From the NCBI RefSeq assembly GCF_035594765.1, contig NC_085841.1, positions 144,073,574 through 144,137,573 of the forward strand: a stretch of 64,000 bases of DNA. Direction: 5' to 3'. The stretch is from Anolis carolinensis. Lineage: Eukaryota. This document shows positions 9,982 through 54,700 of the stretch, piece by piece; the first letter of the stretch is position 1; every line of letters begins with the position of its first letter. A program made the translations under genes and the position numbers. Below the pieces are notes generated by a model that ran no database searches, had not been told where the DNA came from, and saw nothing but the letters and a program-made list of their open reading frames with translations.

Positions 9982-28724
<18,743 letters not shown>

Positions 28725-30520: not shown

Positions 30521-31879
30521 TGGGCCAGATGTCAATAGAAACATGTGGAGCTTCTGCACCTAAACTTCCCAAGTTGGAACTAAGAGACACTCAGCCTGCA
30601 TAGTGTCCTCACCAAGCGCAGGATGCATCCCTCTCCCAAATCCGCCTTGTGTCTTGGACAGTGAATGTGGAGGCTGGAGCACAAAAGCCCCAGCCTCCAC
30701 ATCCACTGCTCAAGACAAGGAGCAAACCAAGATGGGCTCTGCAGTAGCAGGGAACCCCTGGCCCCTCCACTGCTCTTGGGCCTTGGGGCTGAGACAGCGG
30801 GAGGACTATCCATCCAAAGCATCTCTCCTACAGTTTCCAGTGAAAATACTGTGCTCCTGTAGTTTGATGGGAGAAGTTTGAAAGAGGACAGGATGGAAGT
30901 GTTGGACTTGAGGGAAACTCGCTCTGCTCACCTTCTTTGGAATCAAAAGCTCCCCTGAGCTGAACAGATCACCCACCGACAAGGAAAGAAAGGAAGTCAA
31001 AACATTCATTTGTTCCCTATCAGCCTCTGGTGGCAACTTGGAAAATTACATCAAATGTGTACAGACTGAAAAAGATTGGCAGGCCTGATATTTGGTAAAA
31101 TACTTTCCCCACAGTTTGCTTTACAATGCAGACTGGATTTGTGAAACAAAGGGAGAATGGTGGTGGGAAGAACAAACAAAGCATTTTAGTTTTCCTGTTA
31201 GGAAATCTAAATGCTATACATTTTGGCTTCTTCATAGATTTGTTGAAACCGGGAGATCTAATAGATCTTCACGGGGAGATTAAGGATGTCAAATTGCACA
31301 ATTATCAGGAGCCTCAGAGTTTCAATTTTTTTTAAATGCTTGTTCTGCTTTCATTGAAAAATACCATTTTTGAAAACTGTTGTGTGTGCATAGAATTGCC
31401 AGGTGTCCCTTATGACCGCAAATGTTCTGTTTAAGGATTAGAAAACCTTTTCTTTTATGCAGAATGAGCAAAAAGAAGATGTGTTAATGTCACCCCAATG
31501 GTTATAGAGGCAGGATTCCTAACTTACGTCATTCCCCTCCTGCCATGCGTGTCTGGAATTCCCTTGTTTTTAGAGTGTTGTTCTTTGCAATATTTTTTGT
31601 GCTCCTACTGTCTATGTAGATGAAGAAGTATGCATATGCAGTGCTTGAGCGCACACACTAAAAAAAAGGAGGTGGCCCTCAGAAAACACAGGATTTGCCA
31701 GATTTTGGTGATGGGAATATTTTGCTGTGAGGTGTTAGCTGGCTCTGACTGTTTTCTGTCTGCAATTCCCCTGTTTTCAGAGTGTTGTTCTTTATTTAGT
31801 GTTCTGATTTTAGAGATTGTATTGTTCTGTTTTATTATACCACAGTAATTTTTATATATTCTGATTTTAGTGTTTTTGA

Positions 31880-36819: not shown

Positions 36820-37525
36820 CAGGGGTCCCCAAACTACGGCCCGGGGGCCGGATGTGGCCCTCCAAGGTCATTTACCTGGCCCCCGCCCTCCGTTTTATAA
36901 TATAATATTTTTATATCAGTTTTAATAATATATTATATATACATATAATATTGATAAAAATATTATAATGCTATACATTATAATACTAATAATAATACCA
37001 TATAATAATATTAAATTATAGGTTATATATTACATATAATATTAGAATACAGTGGTATAGTTCAATATATAGTAATATATAATGCTAATATTGTGCTATG
37101 CTAATAATATAATATATTGTTTGTACATACAGCTGCTCTGAGTCCCCTTTGGGGTGAGAAGGGTGGAATATAAATGTAGTAAATAAATAAATGAATAATT
37201 TTAGACTCAGGCTCGCCCAAAGTCTGACATGACTTGAAAGCAAACAACAACAACAACAACAACCCTAATTAACTTGACTATCTCATTGGCCAGAAGCAGG
37301 TCCACACTTTCCATTGAAATCCTGATAAATTTATGTTGGTTAAAATTGTTCTTATATTCAAATATTGCATTGTTCTTTCATTGTTGTTGTTTTTTGCACT
37401 ACAAATAAGACATGTGCAGTGTGCATAGAAATTTGTTCATATTTTTTTTCAAATGATAATTCGGCCCCTCAACAGTCTGAAGGATTGTGGACTGGCCCGC
37501 TGCTTTAAAAGTTTGAGGACCTCTG
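36820..37525. mobile_element. hAT non-autonomous element, copy 2
   Basis: Same TIRs and interior as 34861-35791; perfect 8-bp TSD cagtagag. Confidence 0.88.
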
Positions 37526-37849
37526 CAGTAGAGTCTCACTTATCCAAGCCTCGCTTATCCAAGTTTTCTGGATTATCCAAGCCATTTTTGTAGTCAATGT
37601 TTTCAATATATAGTGATATTTTGGTGCTAAATTCGTAAATACAGTAATTACTACATAGCATTACTGCGTATTGAACTACTTTTTCTGTCAAATTTGTTGT
37701 ATAACATGATGTTTTGGTGGTTAATTTGTAAAATCATAACCTAATTTGATGTTTAATAGGCTTTTCCTTAATCCCTCCTTATTATCCAAGATATTCACTT
37801 ATCCAAGCTTCTGCTGGCCCATTTAGCTTGGATAAGTGAGACTCTACTG
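37526..37849. mobile_element. Tc1/mariner MITE (CAGTAGAGTCTCACTTATCCAA family)
   Basis: TIRs cagtagagtctcacttatccaag/cttggataagtgagactctactg, TA flank; its original first 8 bp are at 36812-36819. Confidence 0.85.
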
Positions 37850-38659
37850 TACGTACAATGCATTACTATCTAATACAAAAGACATCACAGTGAACTACTG
37901 AAAGTTCTAGCAATGGCCATCTATTTAGTGTATGTTAATGTTTTTCATATACCGTATATGTATGTAGTGTTGGAGACTTAACTCCTATTGAAATACCAAG
38001 TAATACTGAAAGGAACTGAGAAGAACGAATTACCTGAGGAAGATATACCCACAACAAACATCGAAATAAGGAAATACTACCCGGGACACCTTGTAGTAAC
38101 CTCAGTGACCTCTTAGAACTCTTCTCTGACACTACTACAACTTCTTGGGCAACAAACGGTCCTCCAAGAGACTTAAGATTGTGTTTTTGAACTATTAGAC
38201 AGATCCTGTCAATATATAGGACCTTGGAATTGCCTTTACTAAAAGGAGATTGATGTCTCCCACTTTAAATTTATATAAATACAGACATTTACTTGAAATA
38301 GAGATAAGATTTGTATTTGAATGTTGTATATAAAAGAGATCAACTACATAATAGCATATTTGATGTTCCAATAATCAACAATAACATACTATTGCCTATG
38401 TACTCCTTTATATAGATATCTGTGCTGTAAATATATGAAGACAGACAGAAGCAACTTCATGGCAAGTGCATGTTAATCTGCCTATGCAGACAGTATTGTT
38501 AACATTATTTTTTAAGTGCATAGGTACTGTATGCAATTTGAAACGGAAATTGTTTTCCAAATAATAACACTGTATATCAAATCAGGTATTGAAACCTGTC
38601 TTCTTTCTTTAGTGTCCCATTGCGAAGTGATATTTTTTTGTCAAAATAGGAAAGGCAAC

Positions 38660-38746
38660 ATGGCTGAGAAACCTAAGCTTCATTACTTTTATGGAAGAGG
38701 TCGAATGGAAACCGTCAGGTGGTTGTTATCTGCTGTTGGAGTTGAG
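38660..38746 (+). CDS. GSTA-like coding exon 1
   Basis: [29 protein letters not shown]; an acceptor at 38648-38649 implies an upstream UTR exon. Confidence 0.93.
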
Positions 38747-41700
38747 GTTTGTTTTCATCCCCACCCCCACCCCAAAAATACATCATATCATTTTCAGAAT
38801 TCATTTGGGTTACTGGGTTTTATTGGTTAATTCCTTCACTTTGAATTTGGAAGGGGGCATTTTCAAACTCACCCCTTTACTTTGAGGTTGAGAGAGTGTG
38901 TTACTGTCTCAATGTGCTTTCTCCAAAGTTTCAGGGTTTTTAAAAAAACAATAAATCTTGACATTTTACATTATGAAATCACTTGCCTTTTTTGTTTTTT
39001 TATTTGCTAGTTTGAAGAACAATTTATCCAGTCAAAGGCAGATCTAGAAAAATTAAAGAAAGGTGTGTATGTCGTCTAAACCTTTAATGTGTCTTCTTGG
39101 GTGACTAAACAAATATTTTGGCTTTGTGAAAAATCCTTTAAGATATTAACATAGACATAAAGATTTACAGCCAAATTACTCTATTGTCCCCATCATAGTT
39201 AATGGCAAAACATGAATTCATGGTAATGGAGCAGGAGTCTGGTGGATTCTCTGCACAATGTCATGTAAAGAACAAATACACGCCTGTATGTTTTCATATA
39301 GGGTTTACTATCCATGTTCTGCATTGTGTACCAAATATGTATATGTGGTTTCATGTCAGAACCAGTTGTTTGCCTTTAAGTTGGGTTTTTTATTGGTTTT
39401 ATTATTTGTTCAGAGAGATTTTGCCCCTGCTTTCCTGAGGCTGAACGTATGTGGCCTGCCCAAGGTCACCCAATGGGTTTCCATGGCTGAGTGGGGATTC
39501 CAATCCTAGTCTCCAGGGTTGTAGTTCGACCCTCATAGATTTACACTATGCTGACTCTTATGCAGAAATAAGGGTGAATATTTTGGAAGTCCTGCATTGG
39601 TTATGTGGGAAATAAACCGATTTCTCCCCAATTTTCCTTCCACAAGATGGACTCCTGCTCTTCCAGCAAGTGCCCATGGTGGAAATAGATGGGATGAAGT
39701 TGGTGCAGAGCCGAGCCATTCTCAACTACATTGCAGCAAAATACAATCTCTATGGGAAGGACATCAAGCAGAGGGCACTGTGAGCAACATTTCTACATTT
39801 AGTTAATGCATGTTTGCTTCTGCTTGCTGTGTAAGATATCGGAAATCTGGTTTGCCGTATGATCTGGGTTGTTTTTGTTTTGATCGTGACAGAAGTGAAT
39901 TGAAAACATACTAATTTATGAGCCAATACGGTTCAGCTCATTGCCACTGCCACAATTGAAAAGTGCCAGGTAGAGCACTATTTAGACTGGGGCACCTGCT
40001 ACACAACTGTATAAAATCGAGATTATCTGCTTTGAACTGGATTATATGGCAGTATAGACTCAGATAATCCAGTTCAAAGCAGATAATCTGGATTATCCGC
40101 TTTGATAATCTGTATTATATGGCAGTGTAGAAGGGGCCTGGGTTAATTGGAAGCCAAGCATCCTATCTCCAAAGTTCAGCCTCTAGTCTGGGGTGGGCAG
40201 GTTGTGCTCTTCTGTTTGCTATTGAACTCCAGTTCTCATTTTGATTTCAAAATCAAGAGATTTTGCGTGTTGCATCCATCAGTACCTAGAGAGGGTTACA
40301 TGTTACTTACCTTGGCTTCAGACATTAATTTAATCCAAACAAATGGGAATTCAATGCACCTTTCTCAAAAAAAAATTCGTGTCAGGAGCAACTTGAGTCG
40401 CTTAAAAACCTTTCCCAATGTTTTGTGTACATTATATGAAAAATTAATTATATGGAAAAAATTAAATGCTATTCCTTTGAAGGAACACAACTTGGACAAT
40501 ATTAAACTGTAACCCTTTACAAGCATTTATGAGTGAGCTGCAGTAAATCCAGTTCATCAGGGTGGCATCCACACTGCAGAGTTATAGCAGAAAGATACCA
40601 CTTTAAGGGTCATAGCTCCACCCTATGAAATGCTGGGATTATAGTTTCCCAAGATTCTGTAGAACAGCACCAAAAGTAGCGTCAAACTGTTATAATTTTA
40701 CAGTATAGATAGACTGCAGACCAAAACAACAGAAAGAAGGGTCTTATCCAAGATGGGAATCTTGAGTATTGTGTTTTTCAGTCTTACAGAGCAAACTTTA
40801 TGGAAAAATTATTAGCAAGCATTGTACTACATTCTCTTTTCTAACAGAATTGATGTGTACAGTGAAGGTGCTTGGGACCTGGGTGAAATGATCATGCAAT
40901 TACCCTGGAAATACATTGATCCGGAGGAGAGGGAGAAGGAAACAATTGTGATCCTTGAGAAGGCCACTGGCAGATATTTCCCAGTTTTCGAAAAGGTAAG
41001 AGGATACTGTGCTATGAGAAAAAGTGGGTTGCTTAAGGTCAACAAATGTTAGCCATTGAAAGTACCATTTGGATTATATTGCAGTATAGACTCATACAGT
41101 CCAGTTCAATGTAGTTAATCTGCATTCTGAAACTAAATGATATAGCGGTTTAAATCCAGACCAAGAATACGGGTGTTACACTTTTGTGCAGTTCACCTTC
41201 ATGTGATTCTAAGAGTTTACCATAACATAAGTGCATGAAAGGAAACTTTGCAAGAATTGAAATAAGAAGAATGTTCAGGCTAATACTTTGTTAAAGTGTT
41301 TGATGCTCCTGGCCTACTCTGCTACTGATGTTTGGAGTCCTCCAGTTATCTTATATACCAAACTGCCCATGGAAACAACTGGACACAGTTGTCCAATGCA
41401 GAACATTGGTATTCAGTTCAGAATCGTGAAAGTGAAATTGTGCATGGGATACCATTGTGCATGCAGTTGGGCATTTTTGGATGGCATGTATCCATCTGTC
41501 CTTGTGGCAATTGGTGGTATGACTCTTTTGGTTGTGCATTCCATTTCACAATGTTGCCATTCAATATAGGAATAGCATAGTACAAACAGAAAATATTAGA
41601 ACTGGATAAAGGCCACCTAGCCCAACCTCCTACCATTCATGTTGTATGTTCATGGTGTCCAAAACGTGGCAGTGGCTCTTCAAAAACATATGCCAATCCA

Positions 41701-43108
41701 AATATGAATACTTTGATTTAATGATGCAGTATTCTCCAATGGGTGATCCTCAAAGTAGTACAGCTTTATTGTTTCAGTTTACTATATATGCTTAGAGCAG
41801 TGGCTGTCAACATTTGACTCTCTGCACCCTTTGGATTCAACTCCCAGAAGTCCCCTTTAATGTGGCCAATTATAATTTGCAGTCCAAAATACTTGGGAGA
41901 AGCAATAACCTGTAGTATTGAAAGCACCTTAAAATATTTCCTACTCTGTAGGTTCTGAAAGATCATGGACAAGATTTTCTGGTGGGGAATCAGCTTAGCA
42001 GAGCAGATATCCAGTTGCTTGAGACCATTTTAGCAACAGAAGAGCTGAAGGAGGGTGTCCTCTCCAAGTTTCCTCTTTTAAAGGTAAACAAGCTGTTTTG
42101 GCAAGGCATGAAATGGCAGCGCAGTCTTGCAGGGTACCAGGTCCCACGTGTTTTTAGACACTGGAAGATGGTGTGCAAATCCTGTCTAGGTGGATTCACA
42201 AAGCTGTGGAAAAGGTTTATGTTCAATGGAGGCAGGGTGGGGAAACTGGCTCTCTAAATGTCAGTTCCCTTAATCCTTTAGCTATGTTGGGCAAGACGTA
42301 TGAGACAAAGTCTAACACAGTGATAAAACTGAGAAATAAAGAAAATAATAAAATGGGACATAGAATAACAAGTCCCTTGCTAGAATCTATGAACTCATTA
42401 CATTGGTATGCAACTACAGAAAGTACATAGCAAGGTCATGAGACTTGGCTAACCCCTCCCATTCCCAGTTATTGGTAAGCAGCTGCTACAACCAACTGAG
42501 CTCTGTTTCCCTGTTGTTCGAAAAGTGGTTGACTGACATACTCATCCTCTCACATGTGTTCTCTGTCTTGTGCCAGGCAGAAACAGGGCCCTTGTTACAA
42601 CAAGTGCACACACATTCTGCCCTTGCAACGGAGATAACTTGCACGAGTGGGGGTTGGCACTATCAACCAACTGCTACACAGAGGTTCATCGTTCACTATG
42701 GCAGCTGAATAATAAATTGGTGCTGGGGGCATTTCATGGTCTCTACCTCCCTTAAATAGGGAGATATATAGGGATTGTATATGCAGAGCAGTTATAGATG
42801 TTCAATTCTTGGTTACACAGGGGACATAATATTTTTACTTTAATCAAAGAGATTAGGATTATTTATTGTCAGAAATACAGTACCTTTTATTTATGCATTT
42901 ATTGTTTTTTATTGTTAAGTTGTAATGCCGTTATGCAATAGAATTTTTTCTTTGTGTAAAATTCACACACTCCCCCTCTCTCTTTTAGGCTTTTAAAACA
43001 AAAATAAGCAACATCTCTAACATTAAGAAATTTCTTCAGCCTGGTAGTCCGAGAAAGCCCCCCCTGGATGAGAAAATGCTGGCAGAAGCTATCAACATTT
43101 TCTACTGA
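38660..43108 (+). CDS. Glutathione S-transferase, alpha class (GSTA-like), intact spliced CDS of 223 aa
   Basis: join(38660..38746,39011..39062,39647..39779,40848..40995,41952..42083,42989..43108) = 672 nt, GT-AG. Translation [23 protein letters not shown] (catalytic Tyr9, Arg15), [66 protein letters not shown]. Exon sizes 87/52/133/148/132 follow the GSTA pattern. Confidence 0.95.
39011..39062 (+). CDS. GSTA-like coding exon 2
   Basis: [17 protein letters not shown]; 52 nt. Confidence 0.93.
39647..39779 (+). CDS. GSTA-like coding exon 3
   Basis: [45 protein letters not shown]. Confidence 0.95.
40848..40995 (+). CDS. GSTA-like coding exon 4
   Basis: [49 protein letters not shown]. Confidence 0.93.
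41952..42083 (+). CDS. GSTA-like coding exon 5
   Basis: [44 protein letters not shown]. Confidence 0.95.
42989..43108 (+). CDS. GSTA-like coding exon 6 (last)
   Basis: [42 protein letters not shown]. Confidence 0.93.
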
Positions 43109-44542
43109 GTTGTTCTGCTGAAGATGGCCACCAGTTTACCATTGTAGCTTTGAGAAAAGTGCAGAAATTCTGATTTCAAATAATTCCAAAGGGGTGAAAT
43201 CATAAGATCCATGTAAATCCACATTACTGAGGCCTCTTCCACACTGCCCCTATATCCCAGGTTCTGATTCCAGATTATCTTCTTAACCCATGATTATCTG
43301 ACAGTGAAGAGTCATATAATCCAGTTTAAAGCAGATAACCTGGGATCAGATCCTGGGATATAGGGCAGTGTAGAAGAGGCCTGAGAAACTGTCATAATAC
43401 TTTGTACTATTAGGCCGAAGTGACACCACCCAGTGACTTCAAATCATTCAAAGGGGCTACAATCAAACATGGGTCTGGGTAAATTCTCATAATTGCATTA
43501 AGAAACTAATTTAATAACAGAACTGCAAGGTCGGCTGAGGAGAAACTGCCATCATACTGTGTACCATTAACACAAAATAAAATTTTACACCATTACTATT
43601 GTAGTTATGCATTTGTTTGACTATTATGAAACATGTCAGATACAGCACAATCACCTTAATAGACTTGACTTTCTGGTAAAAATTTGCATGAATGTGACTG
43701 GAAAAGCTCAATGTGCTTCCCCACTGTCAAGAGGCCAGAAAAGTCATGTCTTATACACTGTTTCTCTGTGTATTGGCTATGGTAACACACCCCATTAATT
43801 CTTGGGATTTATAATGGGTGGAAGGGTATTCTAATTCTCATACAGAGAACTCAAGTAGGGACTCACTGAACTACAATCGCTGGGATGTCATAGGGTGAAG
43901 CCATGATTATTACAAAGGAATAACAATAGTGACACGTGAAAGGTTTTAATGGAATTTTTCTCCATGAGCAGGATCCCAACATCTTCTAGGTTTCTTTACA
44001 GCAAGACACCCCAGTTCTTTGAGGCATGAAATTTCAGAGTATCCCCAGCCTATTCAGAATTTAAGGTGTTTTTTTTTCTTGAAATTTATGTACTGGGAAC
44101 TGACTGGTGTTTTCTGTAATATTTATATTTATTGAGAAAGTTATTACCCCACTGTTTTCCCTGCCTGCAGGGCAGTAAATGCATCCAGTAAATCTACTTG
44201 AAGGATTTAGGAGGTTAACATGGACAGCAAGAGCACCTCAACGTTTGCTTCAAAGGTCCTAGAGAAACAGCCCAACTCCCTCAAAATACTGTCAGCGAAC
44301 ACAGTATTTTGCTCTCCTGATTCTTCTTTTCCCCTTACACAACTCACTGTGTGCTGGAAGAAGATGGAAGTTAGATGTTGCCTCTTCTTGAAGCTGGAAC
44401 AATTCCTTGTTAGTGTGACTGTGTGCCTTCTAGTCGTTTTCAAGTTATGCCAAGCCTGTTGTGAAGTTGCATAAGGGTAAGAGTGTGTGATGTGGCTGAG
44501 ACCTACCAGTGGCTAACCGTTGTGAAGCTTCTCTCGTAATAC

Positions 44543-44672
44543 ATTTTCAAAGACAGAAAAATCTGGTAGTGGCTTTCTTGTTGTTTCTTTCTCTTTCTCA
44601 TCAGCTTGTTTGATGGACAGCCTCATGATCATTTCACTTGATTCAAAAGCGCCTTTACGATACATATAAATT
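44543..44672 (-). pseudogene. Inverted, frameshifted GSTA-like exon remnant (homologous to coding exon 4 of the adjacent gene)
   Basis: tttacag|IYMYRKGAFESSEMIMRLSIKQADEKEKET..(shift)KATTRF..VFEN|gt aligns to [40 protein letters not shown]. It is 130 nt against 148, with internal indels. Confidence 0.75.
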
Positions 44673-44959
44673 CTGTAAAGAGAGAGAGAGAGCTCCAATG
44701 ATGCTGTCTAGCAAGTATGCCACCTAGTTTTCTTTAAATGGTGAAATACACAAAACTCATAGTATTATAACTCTGTAGTGTGGATGAACCTCTGATGAAT
44801 TGAATTCAATGCATTTTACTCAGATATGTTGTCCACATTGCATTCCTTTACATTAAGAGCATTTAAAAAAATCACACTCATAATTTATATTCATATAACT
44901 CACACAAAGCACTGAAAAAGGTGAATTAAATTTCCAAAATTAAATTAAATGCCCAAAAT

Positions 44960-45470: not shown

Positions 45471-48334
45471 TGGGGCTCCTGGAACTTATCCCTTCTGGAT
45501 TAGAGCAGAGCTTTGCAAATGGAGTGTCGGGATACATGACACTCCATTTGTGTTACCAGTAGTCATCCAGCCTCAGTTTGAAAACATCAAGACAAGGAAA
45601 TTCCACTGGAAGAAAACCCAAAGGGTATCTAGTCCTGCCCCCTTCAGCCAAGAAGAAACGCACAGTCAAAGCACCCTTGGATAGACATTCATCTTCTGTT
45701 TAAGAAACCTCCAAAGAGGTTTAATGCTATAGAAGTATTGTGCTGGTGCTCTTCAAGCATAGATACTGTTATAACATTTATAATTTGCACAATTTGTTGA
45801 TTGAGTTGTAGTAGTTACTACTAAAACAGGTGCACGCTGTGCTCCTGTGGTTTGCTGGGTGAACTTTGGAAGATAACATGATGGAAGATTGGGAATGGAG
45901 GGAAACAGGTAGAAAAAATTGCAAGCCTGATAGTAACTTTCCACGCAATTTGTTTTGTAATTTCATAGCTGTTTCCATTTTCTCTCTCTATGTAATAAAG
46001 AGTAACTACTCGAATATTACAGGCTGGATTTATGAAAGGAGGGGAGAATGGTGATGTGGGGGAACTATACAACAGTAACTGTCTAGTTTTCCTGTTAGAA
46101 AATCTAAATGCTCTATGTCTTTTGCTTTTTTATAGATTTGATGAAACTGTGAGGTTTCATAGATCCTCAAGAGGAGATTAAGTATGCCAAATTGCACAGG
46201 TATCAGGAATCTCTATGTGACTATGCAGAATGAACATAGAACAAGAAGGGGTAGAAATTTCACTCCCTTTGTTATAGGGGCAGAATCACTACATCTCACT
46301 CACTTATTCTGTCTTTCCTCTCTTGCTATATCTGATGTCACGGGTTTGATCTGGGAAGTGCTCTTTCATGTCTTGGTCAGGAGGGCAGATGGGGAGTGAA
46401 TGGAATGCTGGGAGGGTGACTGACAGCCCATCGGAAGAACAGTTGGTGGTCGACAGTTGGTGCCGTGAAGTCGCCATGACAGAACAGGGATACGGAAGAA
46501 GGAAAGAGCGAATGAAGGGCTACGGCAGAGGGCTTGGGGGCCCTTTCGAGTGAGTCTCCTTTCCTACTAGAACGGTAGTGCCTATGAAAGACATTCAAGT
46601 GAGATGTCTGTCTTTTCTTCCCGCTTGGAGGAAAGACCACTGCAGAACGGCCACCATCTTCAATGCAACAGGGTCTCCCATATCATCTTCCCCAAAACTC
46701 ACCTTTCCTTTGGGAGGCATTTCCTTCCACCAGCCAGAAGCCACGGGCATCTTTGCCATTTTGGGAGATGGTAGCATCGCTCCACTTCTCCAAGTACTCA
46801 TCCACTTTAAGAGGGAAAACTTGGAGCTGGACAAGAAATCACCAGAAAAGAAAAAAGGAAAGATGCCAAGAAAGCATCAACCATCCACAAGAGGCAAGAA
46901 AGAACAAGCATAGACTGTGGATGAAAGAGACTTCACTGAGGGAGTGAAGAATAAAACAGAGAAGGCAAGGCATATCAGGTGGAAGGACAACAAGAAGAGA
47001 TGACACAACTAGGGATGAGAGAAACTCGGGAAGAATGGAGCATTTCAAACAATTAAAACAGGAAATCCAAGCTGACCCTGTCAGAAAGGGAAGACCTCTT
47101 CAAGAAGAGGGGAAGAAAATCACTGCTCCGACAGCAGACATAATCAAAACAGCAGGAGAAGCTTTGGAAATATGTCTAAGACATGAAGAAAAGCTCCATA
47201 ATATGCAGGGAGTGATTCAACAACTAAAAAAAACAAGCTGAATGATCAAATAAACCGAGTCAAACTTCTTTCCCTTGAAGATTGTGGGACGGAACAGCGA
47301 CAGGACTTTGGTGATGACAACGAGACAAGAATTGACTGCCATTTGTGCCCAGGTGGGACTGAAAACCCCTGACTGCGGAAAAACAAAAGCACAGATGGCT
47401 GCTACTGTTGCTGCAAGTTTGAAGAGGAATCGCTAATGGAAAAGGCCACAGAAAAGAAGGCTCCATCTTGAAGAAAAACAACTATCAACAGAACAATGTC
47501 TAGAAATTAATGGGGAGTCGATGTTAGTGATAAACAAAGGGGATTAAGGCTATTCTCTCTTTTTTCTCTATTTTTCCTTTCTTTTTTCTTATCTTTCTTT
47601 CTTTCTGTTATAATGTATATAATGTCAAATCAAATGAAATAGACATGACAAAAAGTTAGAAGTAGAAGGTCACAAAATAGAACCCACAAAGCAAACAGGA
47701 AGCAAAAGGTAACAAACAAAGGCCATCACCATGCTCACACAAAGAACAAAAACAATGTGAATTATCGATAGTTACAGATACATTATGGGGGAGGGTCAAA
47801 TTAGCTGCAACCCTAAGCATCAATCATTGATACAGCAATGCCAAGAAATTAATGGGGACTTCAATGCTTGTGATAAACAAAGGGGATGAAGGCATTTTTC
47901 CTCTATTCCTTCCTTTTCTTTTGTCTTACTCTTTGTTCTGTTATAAAGTATATAATGTAAAAGTAGTTATTAAGTTAATCATACTATTCCTTTAGTAATT
48001 AATATGGTATACCATATTAACTTGAGGACAATGCGCAAGTTTTCCGGCTACCTTACTTCGCTAATATCAGGGTACATTAGACAAAATAAGGGAAAGCTCT
48101 TACTTTTGTAAACTGCAGGGAGCTTGGTGGTAGATACCACACTTTCAAGGAACATGTTTAGCTGCAATTTCCCTTCATTTGCAGTTATGTTGGATATGAC
48201 TGATAGGAGACACAACCTCTGGAGGGTCTTACATTCTTCATCCTTGACCTCCTAGCTAATTGGGTGGGTTCTTCTCTATGACAAAAGGTGGTATATCAGA
48301 GCAGTCTGTTTATAAAAGAATAATCATAAACAAT

Positions 48335-50528: not shown

Positions 50529-50745
50529 GGGCCCGGGCTGTGGCGCAGGCGGGAGAGCAAGCCAGTGCAATTAACTGCAATGAATCACTCTGACCAGGAG
50601 GTCATGAGTTCGAGCCCCGCTCGGAGCCTATGTTTGTTTGTCTTTGTTCTATGTTAAAAGGCATTGAATGTTTGCCTATATGTGTAATGTGATCTGTCCT
50701 GAGTCCCCTTCGGGGTGAGAAGGGCGGAATATAAATGCTGTAAAT
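50529..50745 (+). mobile_element. tRNA-headed SINE with L2-like tail
   Basis: GGGCTGTGGCGCAGGCGG (box A) and GAGTTCGAGCCC (box B); tail CTGAGTCCCCTTCGGGGTGAGAAGGGCGG..ATAAAT. Confidence 0.75.
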
Positions 50746-50746
50746 A

Positions 50747-51054
50747 CAGTAGAGTCTCACTTATCCAACATAAACGGGCCGGCAGAATGTTGGATAAGCG
50801 AATATGTTGGATAATAAGGAGGCATTAAGGAAAAGACTATTAAACATCAAATTAGGTTATGATTTTACAAATGAAGCACCAAAACATCATGTTAGACAAC
50901 AAATTTGGCAGAAAAAGTAGTTCAATATGCAGTAATAAAATGTAGTAATAACTGTATTTATGAATTTAGCACCAAAATATCACGATATATTGAAAACATT
51001 GACTATAAAAATGCGTTGGATAATCCAGAACGTTGGATAAGTGAGACTCTACTG
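50747..51054. mobile_element. Tc1/mariner MITE
   Basis: TA|CAGTAGAGTCTCACTTATCCAAC ... GTTGGATAAGTGAGACTCTACTG|TA. Confidence 0.9.
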
Positions 51055-51429: not shown

Positions 51430-51780
51430 TCACTCTACAGTGCAGGTGGGCCCTCTTTCCCGCTCTGCCTGAGGGAAGATGTCCTTTCCCGCCATGGCTC
51501 CTCCTCCTCCTCCCATGGCGGGCGGGCGGGCGGGAGGGCTTGAGGAAGGGCTGCTGAGGCGGGAGAGAGGCCTCCTCCTCCTCCGCCTGCTTTTGGGCCC
51601 ATGGCGGCGTCGGAGGCCGGTTCCCGGGGCTGGCCTCTCCTCTGGCCCCGGCTGCTCCTCCTGGGGGACTCCATCACCGAGGTAGCCAGCCCGCAGCCCT
51701 CCCCGCCCCTCTCCCCGCCATCCTTCTGGGCCCCCTCCTTCCCTTCTCTTCCCGCCCATTGAGGGCTCCTGCATTGAAGG
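51430..51780 (+). promoter_or_regulatory. IAH1 CpG island / promoter with GC boxes
   Basis: GC-rich island with a (GGGC)n run at ~51518-51535, surrounding the first coding exon. Confidence 0.7.
51601..51681 (+). CDS. IAH1: IAH1 exon 1
   Basis: [27 protein letters not shown]. Confidence 0.9.
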
Positions 51781-54700
51781 GGGATCGTCTTTCTGTGCTT
51801 CAGGGATCGAGAGGGGCTTCTTTGCTGACATTCGGGGTGCTACCTTGATTAGCACTGAATAGCATCTTCAAAGCCTGGCTGCTTCCTGCCTGGGGGCCCT
51901 TCCACACAGCTCTATGTCCCAGAATATCAAGGCAGAAGATCCCACAATATCTGCTTTGAACTGGGTTATCTGTGTCCACATTGCCATATATCCCAGTTCA
52001 AAGCAGAAAATGTGGGCTTTTATTCATCTGTGTGGAAAGGGCCTGGGGGAAGGCTTTTTTTGGGAGGTGTGTTGTTAGAGAGTGGTTCAGAATTTCTGCG
52101 TTGAAAACCACCATGTCGGACTACACAGATAAACCATTGAAATCCACAAGCATGTGGACAATTTCAACAGAACGGAGGAAACCATGAAAATGAACAAAAT
52201 CTGGCTTCCAGTATTTAAAAAACTCTAAAATGAGGACAGTAAATAAAGAACAACACTCTGAAAACAGGGGAATTCACGACAGGAAAGAATCAGAGCCAGC
52301 TAACACCTCCCAACAAAGGATTTCCCCCAGAGAGGAAGCAGCCAGGCTTTGAAGCTGCAAGACTTTTCAGTGCTACTCAAGGTGATTAATTACAACATTT
52401 ACACTGGCCTCCAACAGGCAAGAGTTCTTTCTCCCAGAATGGACCTTCCACAGATATATAAACCCCACTAGTTTATATAGTGGAACTACAGCATTGAGCC
52501 AGGGCAGTTCAAGTCATGCCAAACTGCATTTATTCTGCAGTGTAGATGCACCTTATGTCATTTCCATGCATTGTCATTTTATACACATGTGCCTTCAAGT
52601 TAACGACACTATTAGGATCTCATCACACCAGAGCATGGATCCATTTTAATTCCTGTTACTGCCCACTGCAGAATTCTGGGGCTTGTAGTTTAGGGAGGGG
52701 GCTTTAAACTGCTCAGCCAGGCAGGTCCTGGGTCTCACTAAACTACAAGTCCTAGTATTCTTCAGGAGGTAGAAACTGGATTTAAAGCAGATCCATTTTT
52801 TAAATCATGTCAGAAGCTAATTGAGAATATACTGCAAGTCGTTTCTGGTGTGAGAGAATCAGCTGTCTACAAAGATGTTGCCCAGGGATTTGTTACCATC
52901 CTGTGGGAGGCTTCTCTTATGTTTCAGCATGGGAAGCTGGGGCTGACAAACAGGAGCTAACCAATATCTGCTTTGAACTGGAATATATGACAGTGTGGAC
53001 TCAGATAATCCAGTTCAAAGCAGATATTGTGAGATTGTTTTGCCTTGATTTTCTGGGTTATATGGCTTTGTGGAAGTGCCCTGGGTTATCTGAGTCCACA
53101 CTGCCATATATTCCAGTTCAAAGCCGATAATGTGGGATTTTATTCAACTGTGTGGAAGGGGCCTTAGTGTAATGGGACTTAGGCATCCATGGATTTTATT
53201 ATCCACAGGGGTCCCTGAACCAAACCTCAGCAGATATGGAGGGCCTGGTCTATAAAATGTAGCGCATTTCTGTGAGCCATTTTTGAGACCCATAATGCTG
53301 TAAAAACCACTTGCTCCCTGATTAGCTGGGTAAGGCATCACAACTGTAAATGATATTTGCTCTGAATGGAAATCTTAGTCAGTGTTTATTATTTTCTTTC
53401 TAGTTTTCCTTCCAAGAAAACGGATGGGGGGCATCACTTGCTCACAGATTAGCCAGGTAAGGTATTCTCAAAATGTCTGGTTTTTTATGTTTTCAAATTT
53501 CTCTGAAGAATAGTTAAGATGGATAAACTACCTGTGTCTAAGAACAAACATAGTTATTTTGAGACACAATATCCAAAGCATCAGTGTTGTTTTCCTTTCT
53601 GTTTCTGTTGTGGACATAGGCTGGAAATGTCATTTCCTCTCTTTTTCAATATGAACCAAGGTATTATTTTTAAAGAGATCATTGCATGACATGAAAGAAA
53701 AAGATTCCAGTGAGAGAAAGTTCCACACAAATTTTTGAGTGCCAAAATAGAATCCACTGCAAAGAAGAAAGATTCAGGTTGCAACTTAACAAAGTTTAAG
53801 GCAAAATGAGAAAGATTTCTGCAGCAAAGTTTGGGATTAAAATTCTTTTTCAGTTCACTGGCACTCTCTAGAGAGAACATACGATTGCACTAGAACAAAA
53901 AGACATCAGAACAGTTTCTAATGTTTTAAAATAGGGAGATTTTTGAGATAAAAAATGTGTATTCATTTCAGAAAGTGTGACGTCGTGAATCGTGGACTCT
54001 CTGGCTACAACACACGATGGGCAAAAATTGTCCTTCCAAGGCTAGTCTGTAAAGATTCTAATGCTAAGAATACCATTGCTGTAACAGTCTTCTTTGGAGC
54101 CAATGACTGTGCTTTAAAAGGTATAGCATATTTTAATCTTTATTTTATTGTTTTTTTATTCTTGTATTTTTTAAATTCTTTTTTGACTATTTCATGACAT
54201 TTGTATTATGTTATGTCAGATCCTTGAAAGCCTAAACACTAATGTCAGTTAGCTGAACTAAGGAAACATTATTAAGGTTTCAGGCCTCCATGTATGGACT
54301 AGCTTTTGTTTGAAGAATGTAAGGTCAGGCCAATTGTGTGCAACAGTCAAAAGGAGCTGTCTTTGAAAAGCATTTGGAAAAGCTGCCATATTTTGACTCT
54401 GGTTTTTAAGCAAAAAGCAATGCAATATATTAATCTGAAGAAGTGGATGGGATAATAACATGGAAGGTCCTTACACACTTCCCATTTCTTATCCCTCTTA
54501 TTTCAGCCAAAAATGTGTGCGTTCGGGTGGGGATAGGCCTCTCTTGTGTGTGCGAATTGTTCCCATGCAGATTATTTTAATACTTATGTAAAATAACATT
54601 TGTCTAGTGTGATTATTTAATTACATTTGTCCAGTGTGATTATTTTGTTTCTTCTCTTGAAAGTATTGCTCGATACTATTAGCTTATGGATGCGCATCTA

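What the first reader, a model, noticed from the sequence alone, without database searches (positions are those of the whole stretch)
38650..43108. Intact alpha-class GST gene lodged inside the conserved CPSF3-IAH1 interval
Seen: a complete six-coding-exon GSTA-like ORF with canonical splice sites, Tyr9 and Arg15, between CPSF3 and IAH1. Known: in human, ITGB1BP1-CPSF3-IAH1-ADAM17 is contiguous with no GST, and GSTA genes cluster elsewhere, near CILK1/FBXO9/ELOVL5. Inference: the introns rule out a retrocopy. It is either a DNA-level transposed paralog or an ancestral GSTA locus lost in mammals, possibly a reptile-specific detoxification enzyme.
Basis: partly seen in the sequence, partly recalled or inferred. 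Interest (0 to 1): 0.7.

Follow-up and report, generated by a model that had tools for sequence, protein, structure and literature searches.

The report
Anole detox gene moved from cluster
This is an intact, spliced, already annotated glutathione S-transferase gene of the green anole that lies 5 Mb from its family cluster; it is likely a young DNA copy that left the cluster without its promoter, not an ancient gene lost in mammals.

Summary
The gene is real: six coding exons, all GT-AG, 223 aa, Tyr9/Arg15 intact, between CPSF3 and IAH1. It is RefSeq XP_008115855.1 of Anolis carolinensis. It is not ancestral. The canonical GSTA cluster (8 intact genes) lies 5 Mb away on the same contig, on the opposite strand. 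The gene nests among Anolis paralogs, and its introns and flanks align with cluster gene A5 at 78-84% (dS 0.17). Homology stops 225 bp above the ATG, at the end of a dispersed repeat, so the parental promoter and non-coding exon are absent. Yet transcript contigs from one study show gene-specific splicing and an unlocated upstream exon. dN/dS on its branch is 0.34. Its closest relative, in A. sagrei, carries an accession inside the cluster run and far from IAH1: a proxy for a move in the carolinensis line. Beside it lies an inverted, decayed GSTA exon 4 whose acceptor is used by an opposite-strand spliced transcript. Verdict: a lineage-specific dispersed duplicate; modest interest.

The parts
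38660..43108 (+). GSTA gene 'W', six coding exons (38660-38746, 39011-39062, 39647-39779, 40848-40995, 41952-42083, 42989-43108), 223 aa, RefSeq XP_008115855.1
38648..38659 (+). Splice acceptor (AG at 38648-38649) and 10-nt leader before the ATG; a transcript contig joins 54 letters from outside 37300-44900 here
   Evidence: sequence, run X18 record 11
38435..44463 (+). Block homologous to cluster gene A5, introns and 3' flank included (78-84% in the long pieces)
37910..38441 (.). End piece of a dispersed repeat (best copies 86-93% alike) whose terminus meets the start of GSTA homology; class not determined
43109..43581 (+). Likely 3' UTR; first AATAAA at 43576
   Evidence: contigs over 43021-43636
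44505..44936 (-). Decayed, inverted GSTA exon 4 with intron flanks, closest to cluster gene A7; acceptor AG at 44674-44673
44040..44672 (-). Exon of an opposite-strand spliced transcript that starts at the relic's acceptor and runs towards the 3' end of W; upstream exon not located
   Evidence: X18 record 16 and X19 record 24
10012..28724 (+). CPSF3 coding exons (upstream neighbour)
51601..57116 (+). IAH1 coding exons (downstream neighbour)
60870..61244 (-). Frame holding the last coding exon of ADAM17

Best explanation
W is an intact, spliced alpha-class GST gene that likely arose by tandem duplication inside the anole GSTA cluster and was then likely moved or copied as DNA 5 Mb along the chromosome into the CPSF3-IAH1 gap, where it would work as an ordinary glutathione-conjugating enzyme under a newly acquired 5' exon. 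Shown: intact frame, catalytic residues, intron homology to cluster genes, opposite orientation to the cluster, no parental promoter in the window, spliced transcript contigs with an upstream exon from outside the laid stretch, purifying selection on the branch as a whole. Inferred: that the move came after the split from A. sagrei (about 0.65); that it was a complex rearrangement taking about 6.5 kb (W without promoter plus an inverted piece of an A7-like neighbour); that the new 5' exon comes from a repeat or from CPSF3 read-through; that the protein is active.
For: 39 of 44 exon matches in the genome lie in one cluster at C1:139.00-139.15 Mb (-), 5 of 44 in the window (+); an ELO-family gene lies at 139.30 Mb, marking the canonical site (the GSTA-ELOVL5 linkage is recalled). 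Continuous alignment to A5 through all five introns; intron distances W-A5 0.15, W-A6 0.14, A5-A6 0.14, W-A8 0.27. W groups with A5, A6, A8 and four A. sagrei genes (98/91). W branch: 13 synonymous, 16 non-synonymous changes, dN/dS 0.34, p 0.005 against neutrality. X18 contigs match exons 1 and 4 with 0 mismatches and join exon 1-2, 3-4 and 4-5 at GT-AG; X19 repeats the 3-4 joint with 1 mismatch. A TATA-like motif and GT donor block is shared by A4-A8 about 3 kb above the ATG of A5; a profile of it finds nothing in the window (best E 1) and a genome search with the A5 copy hits only the cluster (4 of 4 matches). A. sagrei accessions: GSTAs 644364, 644375, 644395, 644436, 644444 and W-like 644456, against IAH1 643557. 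The relic is sister to A7 (bootstrap 93), and the A7-like gene has the nearest accession to the W-like gene among the A. sagrei GSTAs seen.
Against: No other lizard genome could be read; position in A. sagrei rests on accession order, and that order does not follow the carolinensis cluster order locally. The pairing of W with A. sagrei 644456 has 84/93 support and 3 exclusive residues, but the tree with W+A5+A6 is not rejected (p-AU 0.12). The dN/dS spans time before and after the move. W carries 4 changes at columns at least 90% conserved that the A. sagrei relative lacks (M94V, R189K, P194S, K220N; 6 such changes in all, against 0-9 in 8 other iguanian GSTAs), which may mean relaxed constraint. 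Gene-specific splicing comes from 2 samples of 1 study, in runs whose RNA label is a guess, as contigs. The 5' exon rests on one contig. The junctions with the CPSF3 and IAH1 sides were not tested with reads.
Confidence: 0.8

Rival explanations
1. The copy reached the CPSF3-IAH1 gap in the common ancestor of A. carolinensis and A. sagrei (or wider Anolis); A. sagrei still has it there or lost it, and its cluster gene 644456 is a sister copy.
For: W has a likely orthologue in A. sagrei (88% identity); accession order is only a proxy; a partial W-like A. sagrei model (XP_060616239, 130 aa, 96% to 644456) has a distant accession.
Against: All full-length A. sagrei GSTAs seen (6 genes) fall in 644364-644456, 800-900 numbers from IAH1; IAH1 and the GSTA run are also apart by 131 numbers in Rhineura and 63 locus tags in Phrynosoma, as expected if numbering roughly follows position. 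The partial model is listed in nr only and is about 27,000 numbers from IAH1 643557 and 5,400 from the second IAH1 model 610845.
Confidence: 0.25
2. W is a young pseudogene in early decay: transcribed by leak or read-through after losing its promoter, with a frame not yet broken.
For: Parental promoter absent; 10 residues unique among 18 rows, 4 at strongly conserved columns; an opposite-strand transcript converges on its 3' end.
Against: Branch dN/dS 0.34, p 0.005; frame, 5 of 5 splice pairs and glutathione-site residues intact while the adjacent A7-like relic is frameshifted and about 60-67% alike; correct splicing.
Confidence: 0.12
3. An ancestral amniote GSTA locus between CPSF3 and IAH1, lost in mammals.
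For: None found. The decayed A7-like relic is older-looking, but it too groups inside the Anolis A4-A8 expansion.
Against: Tree position; intron identity; turtle and hamster gene models that join CPSF3 exons straight to IAH1 exons (P0173, P0231; weak, these are prediction artefacts).
Confidence: 0.02
4. Misassembly: a cluster gene placed at the wrong site.
For: Both flanks are rich in repeats; junctions were not bridged with reads.
Against: The window has no N; W is a distinct paralog, not a haplotype (16 runs of 5 studies hold at least half the words of 38400-44500; one may be the assembly's source); its accession XP_008115855 stands about 300 numbers from those of A5 and A8 in the same series; no promoter left without a gene in the cluster.
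Confidence: 0.04

Closest known systems
Human GSTA1-1 (PDB 1PKW, 1GSD; alpha-class cytosolic GST)
   Same: 69% identity over the whole length; Tyr9, Arg15, Phe52, Gln54-Val55-Pro56, Gln67 and the C-terminal segment align.
   Different: Two-residue insertion in exon 4 (148 nt against 142), shared with A5, A6, A8, four A. sagrei, three Sceloporus and one Phrynosoma protein; different substrate-site residues (Trp100, Gln108); outside the cluster.
A. carolinensis cluster genes A5 (XP_008116178.1) and A6 (XP_003215486.1)
   Same: 86.5% and 84.3% protein identity, same exon lengths, homologous introns and 3' flank.
   Different: They keep the shared promoter and non-coding exon 1 and lie in tandem on the minus strand 5 Mb away.
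A. sagrei GSTA1-like XP_060644456
   Same: Closest protein (88%), sister in both trees, three exclusive shared residues V26, Q108, I114.
   Different: Its accession lies within the cluster run, not near IAH1 (proxy).
Dispersed (transposed) DNA duplicates that recruit a new promoter (general class; recalled, no paper read)
   Same: Introns kept, truncated 5' end, repeat at the boundary, new leader exon.
   Different: No target-site duplication or paired element ends were found, so no transposon-capture mechanism is shown.

Membership tests
Alpha-class cytosolic GST | GST_N plus GST_C domains over about 222 aa | tested here: met
   PF02798, PF00043, PF14497 on P0001; E 1e-97 to human GSTA1
Alpha-class cytosolic GST | Catalytic Tyr9 and Arg15; glutathione-site Gln54-Val55-Pro56 and Gln67-Ser/Thr68; Phe52 (roles recalled) | tested here: met
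   sequence, alignment
Alpha-class cytosolic GST | Six coding exons of 87/52/133/142/132 nt plus last exon, as in the cluster genes | tested here: met
   exon 4 is 148 nt as in A5, A6, A8
Alpha-class cytosolic GST | Non-coding first exon and promoter shared by the cluster genes | tested here: not met
   no homologue in the window or outside the cluster; a different upstream exon is implied. A gene-structure trait, not a protein-family criterion.
Alpha-class cytosolic GST | Dimer with glutathione-conjugating activity | not testable with these tools
   needs a protein assay
Retrocopy | Introns absent | tested here: not met
   five introns homologous to A5 and A6
DNA-level dispersed duplicate | Homologous introns and flanks with a source gene elsewhere | tested here: met
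DNA-level dispersed duplicate | Site empty in outgroup species | tested here: inconclusive
   only accession order and fused gene models were available
Transposon-captured gene (Pack-type or composite) | Paired element ends around the cargo | tested here: inconclusive
   one repeat end at the 5' boundary, no partner end in 28000-52000; none among cluster hits
Ancestral amniote locus | Branches below the reptile-mammal split; introns unalignable to paralogs | tested here: not met
Pseudogene | Broken frame or splice sites, or dN/dS near 1 | tested here: not met

The most novel reading that the evidence does not exclude
In the green-anole line alone, a detoxification gene was lifted out of its tandem cluster without its promoter, landed inverted between CPSF3 and IAH1, captured a new leader exon from a repeat or from CPSF3 read-through, and brought along a broken GSTA exon that now serves as the splice acceptor of a converging antisense RNA: one rearrangement giving a re-wired enzyme gene and a new non-coding transcript.
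Probability: 0.4. Interest if true: 0.5.

Novelty: new member of a known kind. Interest (0 to 1): 0.27.

Why it matters
As an enzyme it is an ordinary GSTA, one of nine in this genome, and it is already in RefSeq, whose name 'GSTA1' does not mean orthology to human GSTA1. As a locus it is a compact, datable case of a gene leaving a tandem cluster and being re-wired, in a model lizard with close sequenced relatives, so promoter capture and expression change can be tested directly. It gives no support for a lost ancestral GSTA locus.

Tried and rejected
Paper searches found no report of this locus: searches returned 0 papers; (CPSF3+IAH1+ADAM17) returned 5, one search returned 209 (20 listed) and one search returned 4, none on anole GSTA by listing and abstract start. 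PMC12596200 (Anolis rearrangements) was seen as passages only and has 0 hits for 'glutathione' or 'GST' in the main text; its supplements were not examined and could list the gene. Subscription journals are not covered. Earlier findings of this scan: nothing in 3 of 3 look-ups. No RNA holder was listed on record. X17 gave scattered intronic pieces and X21 one joint (exon 2-3, 27-letter side) that a paralog could give; neither was counted. A search for W's old seat or a stranded promoter at the cluster end found only a 130-160 bp piece at 72-74%, too far for a recent remnant. The 5' exon could not be named: 27 AG|GT candidates lie between CPSF3 and W, and CPSF3's second-last exon ends in GG, not AG. 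The class of the boundary repeat could not be set. No structure or complex prediction was run, since the sequence match to solved GSTAs is decisive.

Full report
Observation. The six coding exons are at 38660-38746, 39011-39062, 39647-39779, 40848-40995, 41952-42083 and 42989-43108 on the plus strand; all five introns are GT-AG and the frame gives 223 aa. I call the gene W. It aligns end to end with human GSTA1 (E 1e-97) with Tyr9, Arg15, Phe52, Gln54-Val55-Pro56 and Gln67 in place (the roles of these residues are recalled). CPSF3 lies upstream and IAH1 downstream on the same strand, with ADAM17 beyond on the other. The protein is identical to Anolis carolinensis RefSeq XP_008115855.1, named glutathione S-transferase A1.

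Source. The window is G000:C1:144.07-144.14 Mb. A genome search with W gives 44 exon matches: 5 in the window and 39 at C1:139.00-139.15 Mb on the minus strand. There I built 8 intact genes, A1-A8, and saw one decayed fragment. An ELO-family gene lies at 139.30 Mb, which fits the canonical cluster site (recalled). W aligns with A5 from 38435 to 44463, through every intron and into the 3' flank, at 78-84% in the long pieces. Against A5, protein identity is 86.5%, dS 0.17 and dN 0.07. Intron distances from local alignments, which lean low, are 0.15 (W-A5), 0.14 (W-A6), 0.14 (A5-A6) and 0.27-0.28 to A8 and A4. W, A5 and A6 thus split at about the same time, late in a local expansion.

Age. In a tree of 65 proteins (the 9 anole models plus 56 of the 120 hits listed, chosen to cover squamates with some bird, turtle and mammal rows; long fused models, unnamed rows and most human variants were left out), W sits in a clade of Anolis, Sceloporus and Phrynosoma genes (99/97) and, within it, with A5, A6, A8 and four A. 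sagrei genes (98/91). Gecko, snake, agamid and lacertid genes form their own groups. This rules out an amniote-age locus. W's sister is A. sagrei XP_060644456 (86/92 and 84/93; three exclusive residues), but W+A5+A6 is not rejected (p-AU 0.12).

Timing of the move (inferred). No other vertebrate genome could be read, so I used accession order as a rough proxy for position. A. sagrei GSTAs run 644364, 644375, 644395, 644436, 644444 and 644456 (the W-like gene), while IAH1 is 643557. IAH1 and the GSTA run are 131 numbers apart in Rhineura and 63 locus tags apart in Phrynosoma. This suggests that the W-like gene is still in the A. sagrei cluster and that W left in the carolinensis line. Against this, the local order differs from the carolinensis cluster, and one Hemicordylus GSTA stands about 1,080 numbers from the others, so numbering is not strictly positional.

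Anatomy of the insert. Homology to A5 stops 225 bp above the ATG, whereas A5-A6 homology continues upstream. A4-A8 share a block with a TATA-like motif and a GT donor, about 3 kb above the ATG in A5, which I read as promoter plus non-coding exon 1. A profile of it finds the five genes it was built from and nothing in the window (best E 1); a genome search with the A5 copy hits only the cluster. At the break lies the terminus of a dispersed repeat (37910-38441), with no partner end nearby. At the other end, 44505-44936 holds an inverted, frameshifted exon 4 with intron flanks, sister to A7 (bootstrap 93 on about 200 columns). The moved piece was therefore probably about 6.5 kb and internally rearranged, which fits template switching or a repeat-associated rearrangement better than clean transposition (inference).

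Expression. In X18, contigs match exon 1 and exon 4 with 0 mismatches and join exons 1-2, 3-4 and 4-5 at GT-AG; X19, from the same study, repeats the 3-4 joint. Exon 4 is about 80% identical to A5 at the protein level, so these contigs are W's own. The exon-1 contig carries 54 more letters that do not lie in 37300-44900 and breaks at the acceptor at 38648-38649, which implies an upstream exon; since the parental one is absent, it is likely new. It was not located. Two contigs (719 and 743 nt, 0 and 1 mismatch) cover 44040/44069-44672 and break exactly at the relic's AG acceptor on the minus strand, with 86 and 139 letters from elsewhere: a spliced transcript on the opposite strand that converges on W's 3' end. 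Contigs give no level, tissue or ends.

Selection. On the W branch I count 13 synonymous and 16 non-synonymous changes (146 and 523 sites), dN/dS 0.34, p 0.005 against neutrality, the same range as A5 and A6. This includes time before the move. Four changes at strongly conserved columns are absent from the A. sagrei relative, a hint of relaxed constraint but within the range of its paralogs.

How it most likely works. W would fold as a standard GSTA dimer, activate glutathione through Tyr9 and conjugate it to electrophiles, with substrate preference set by the variable exon-4 and C-terminal residues (from knowledge of the family; untested here). What is new is regulation: expression from a borrowed 5' exon, perhaps shaped by a converging antisense RNA (inferred).

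Verdict. Real, intact, spliced and already annotated; a young dispersed DNA duplicate from the anole GSTA expansion. Seven paper searches found no description of it. New member of a known kind; interest 0.27.

Noticed in passing
window 44040-44672 (-): Spliced opposite-strand transcript that uses the acceptor of the decayed GSTA exon 4; first exon unknown, possibly divergent from the IAH1 promoter near 51.5 kb.
   Followed up: partly
G000:C1:139.00-139.15 Mb (L009-L024): A4-A8 form an Anolis expansion of one squamate GSTA; geckos, Pogona and Sceloporus show their own expansions in the tree. A7 has 9 changes at columns at least 90% conserved and a longer C-terminus.
   Followed up: partly
G000:C1:138997171-138998233 (L009): Decayed GSTA fragment beyond A8 with exon 1 and exon 5 matches only about 0.8 kb apart, so exons 2-4 appear deleted.
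   Followed up: partly
Hemicordylus capensis XP_053143391 (P0063): A long-branch GSTA whose accession is about 1,080 numbers from the other GSTAs of that species; may be an independent dispersed copy or a numbering effect.
   Followed up: no
P0173 (Chelonia mydas), P0231 (Cricetulus griseus): Public gene models that fuse CPSF3 exons to IAH1 exons; likely prediction artefacts, but read-through across this interval is worth checking.
   Followed up: partly
P0121, P0011 (UniRef G1KUR3, A0A803SW57): Anole models that extend W and A5 at the N-terminus by reading into intron 1; P0011 also seems to join A5 to A8 exons. Likely annotation errors.
   Followed up: no
window 45935-46600 and 30849-31310: Two copies of one repeat family (79-81% alike, same direction) on either side of W; the family's best hits are concentrated on C1:145-185 Mb.
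   Followed up: no
window 37566-37857 and 50739-51030: 292-nt inverted pair (91%) of a very common short repeat around the insert; many copies also lie in the cluster, so probably chance.
   Followed up: no
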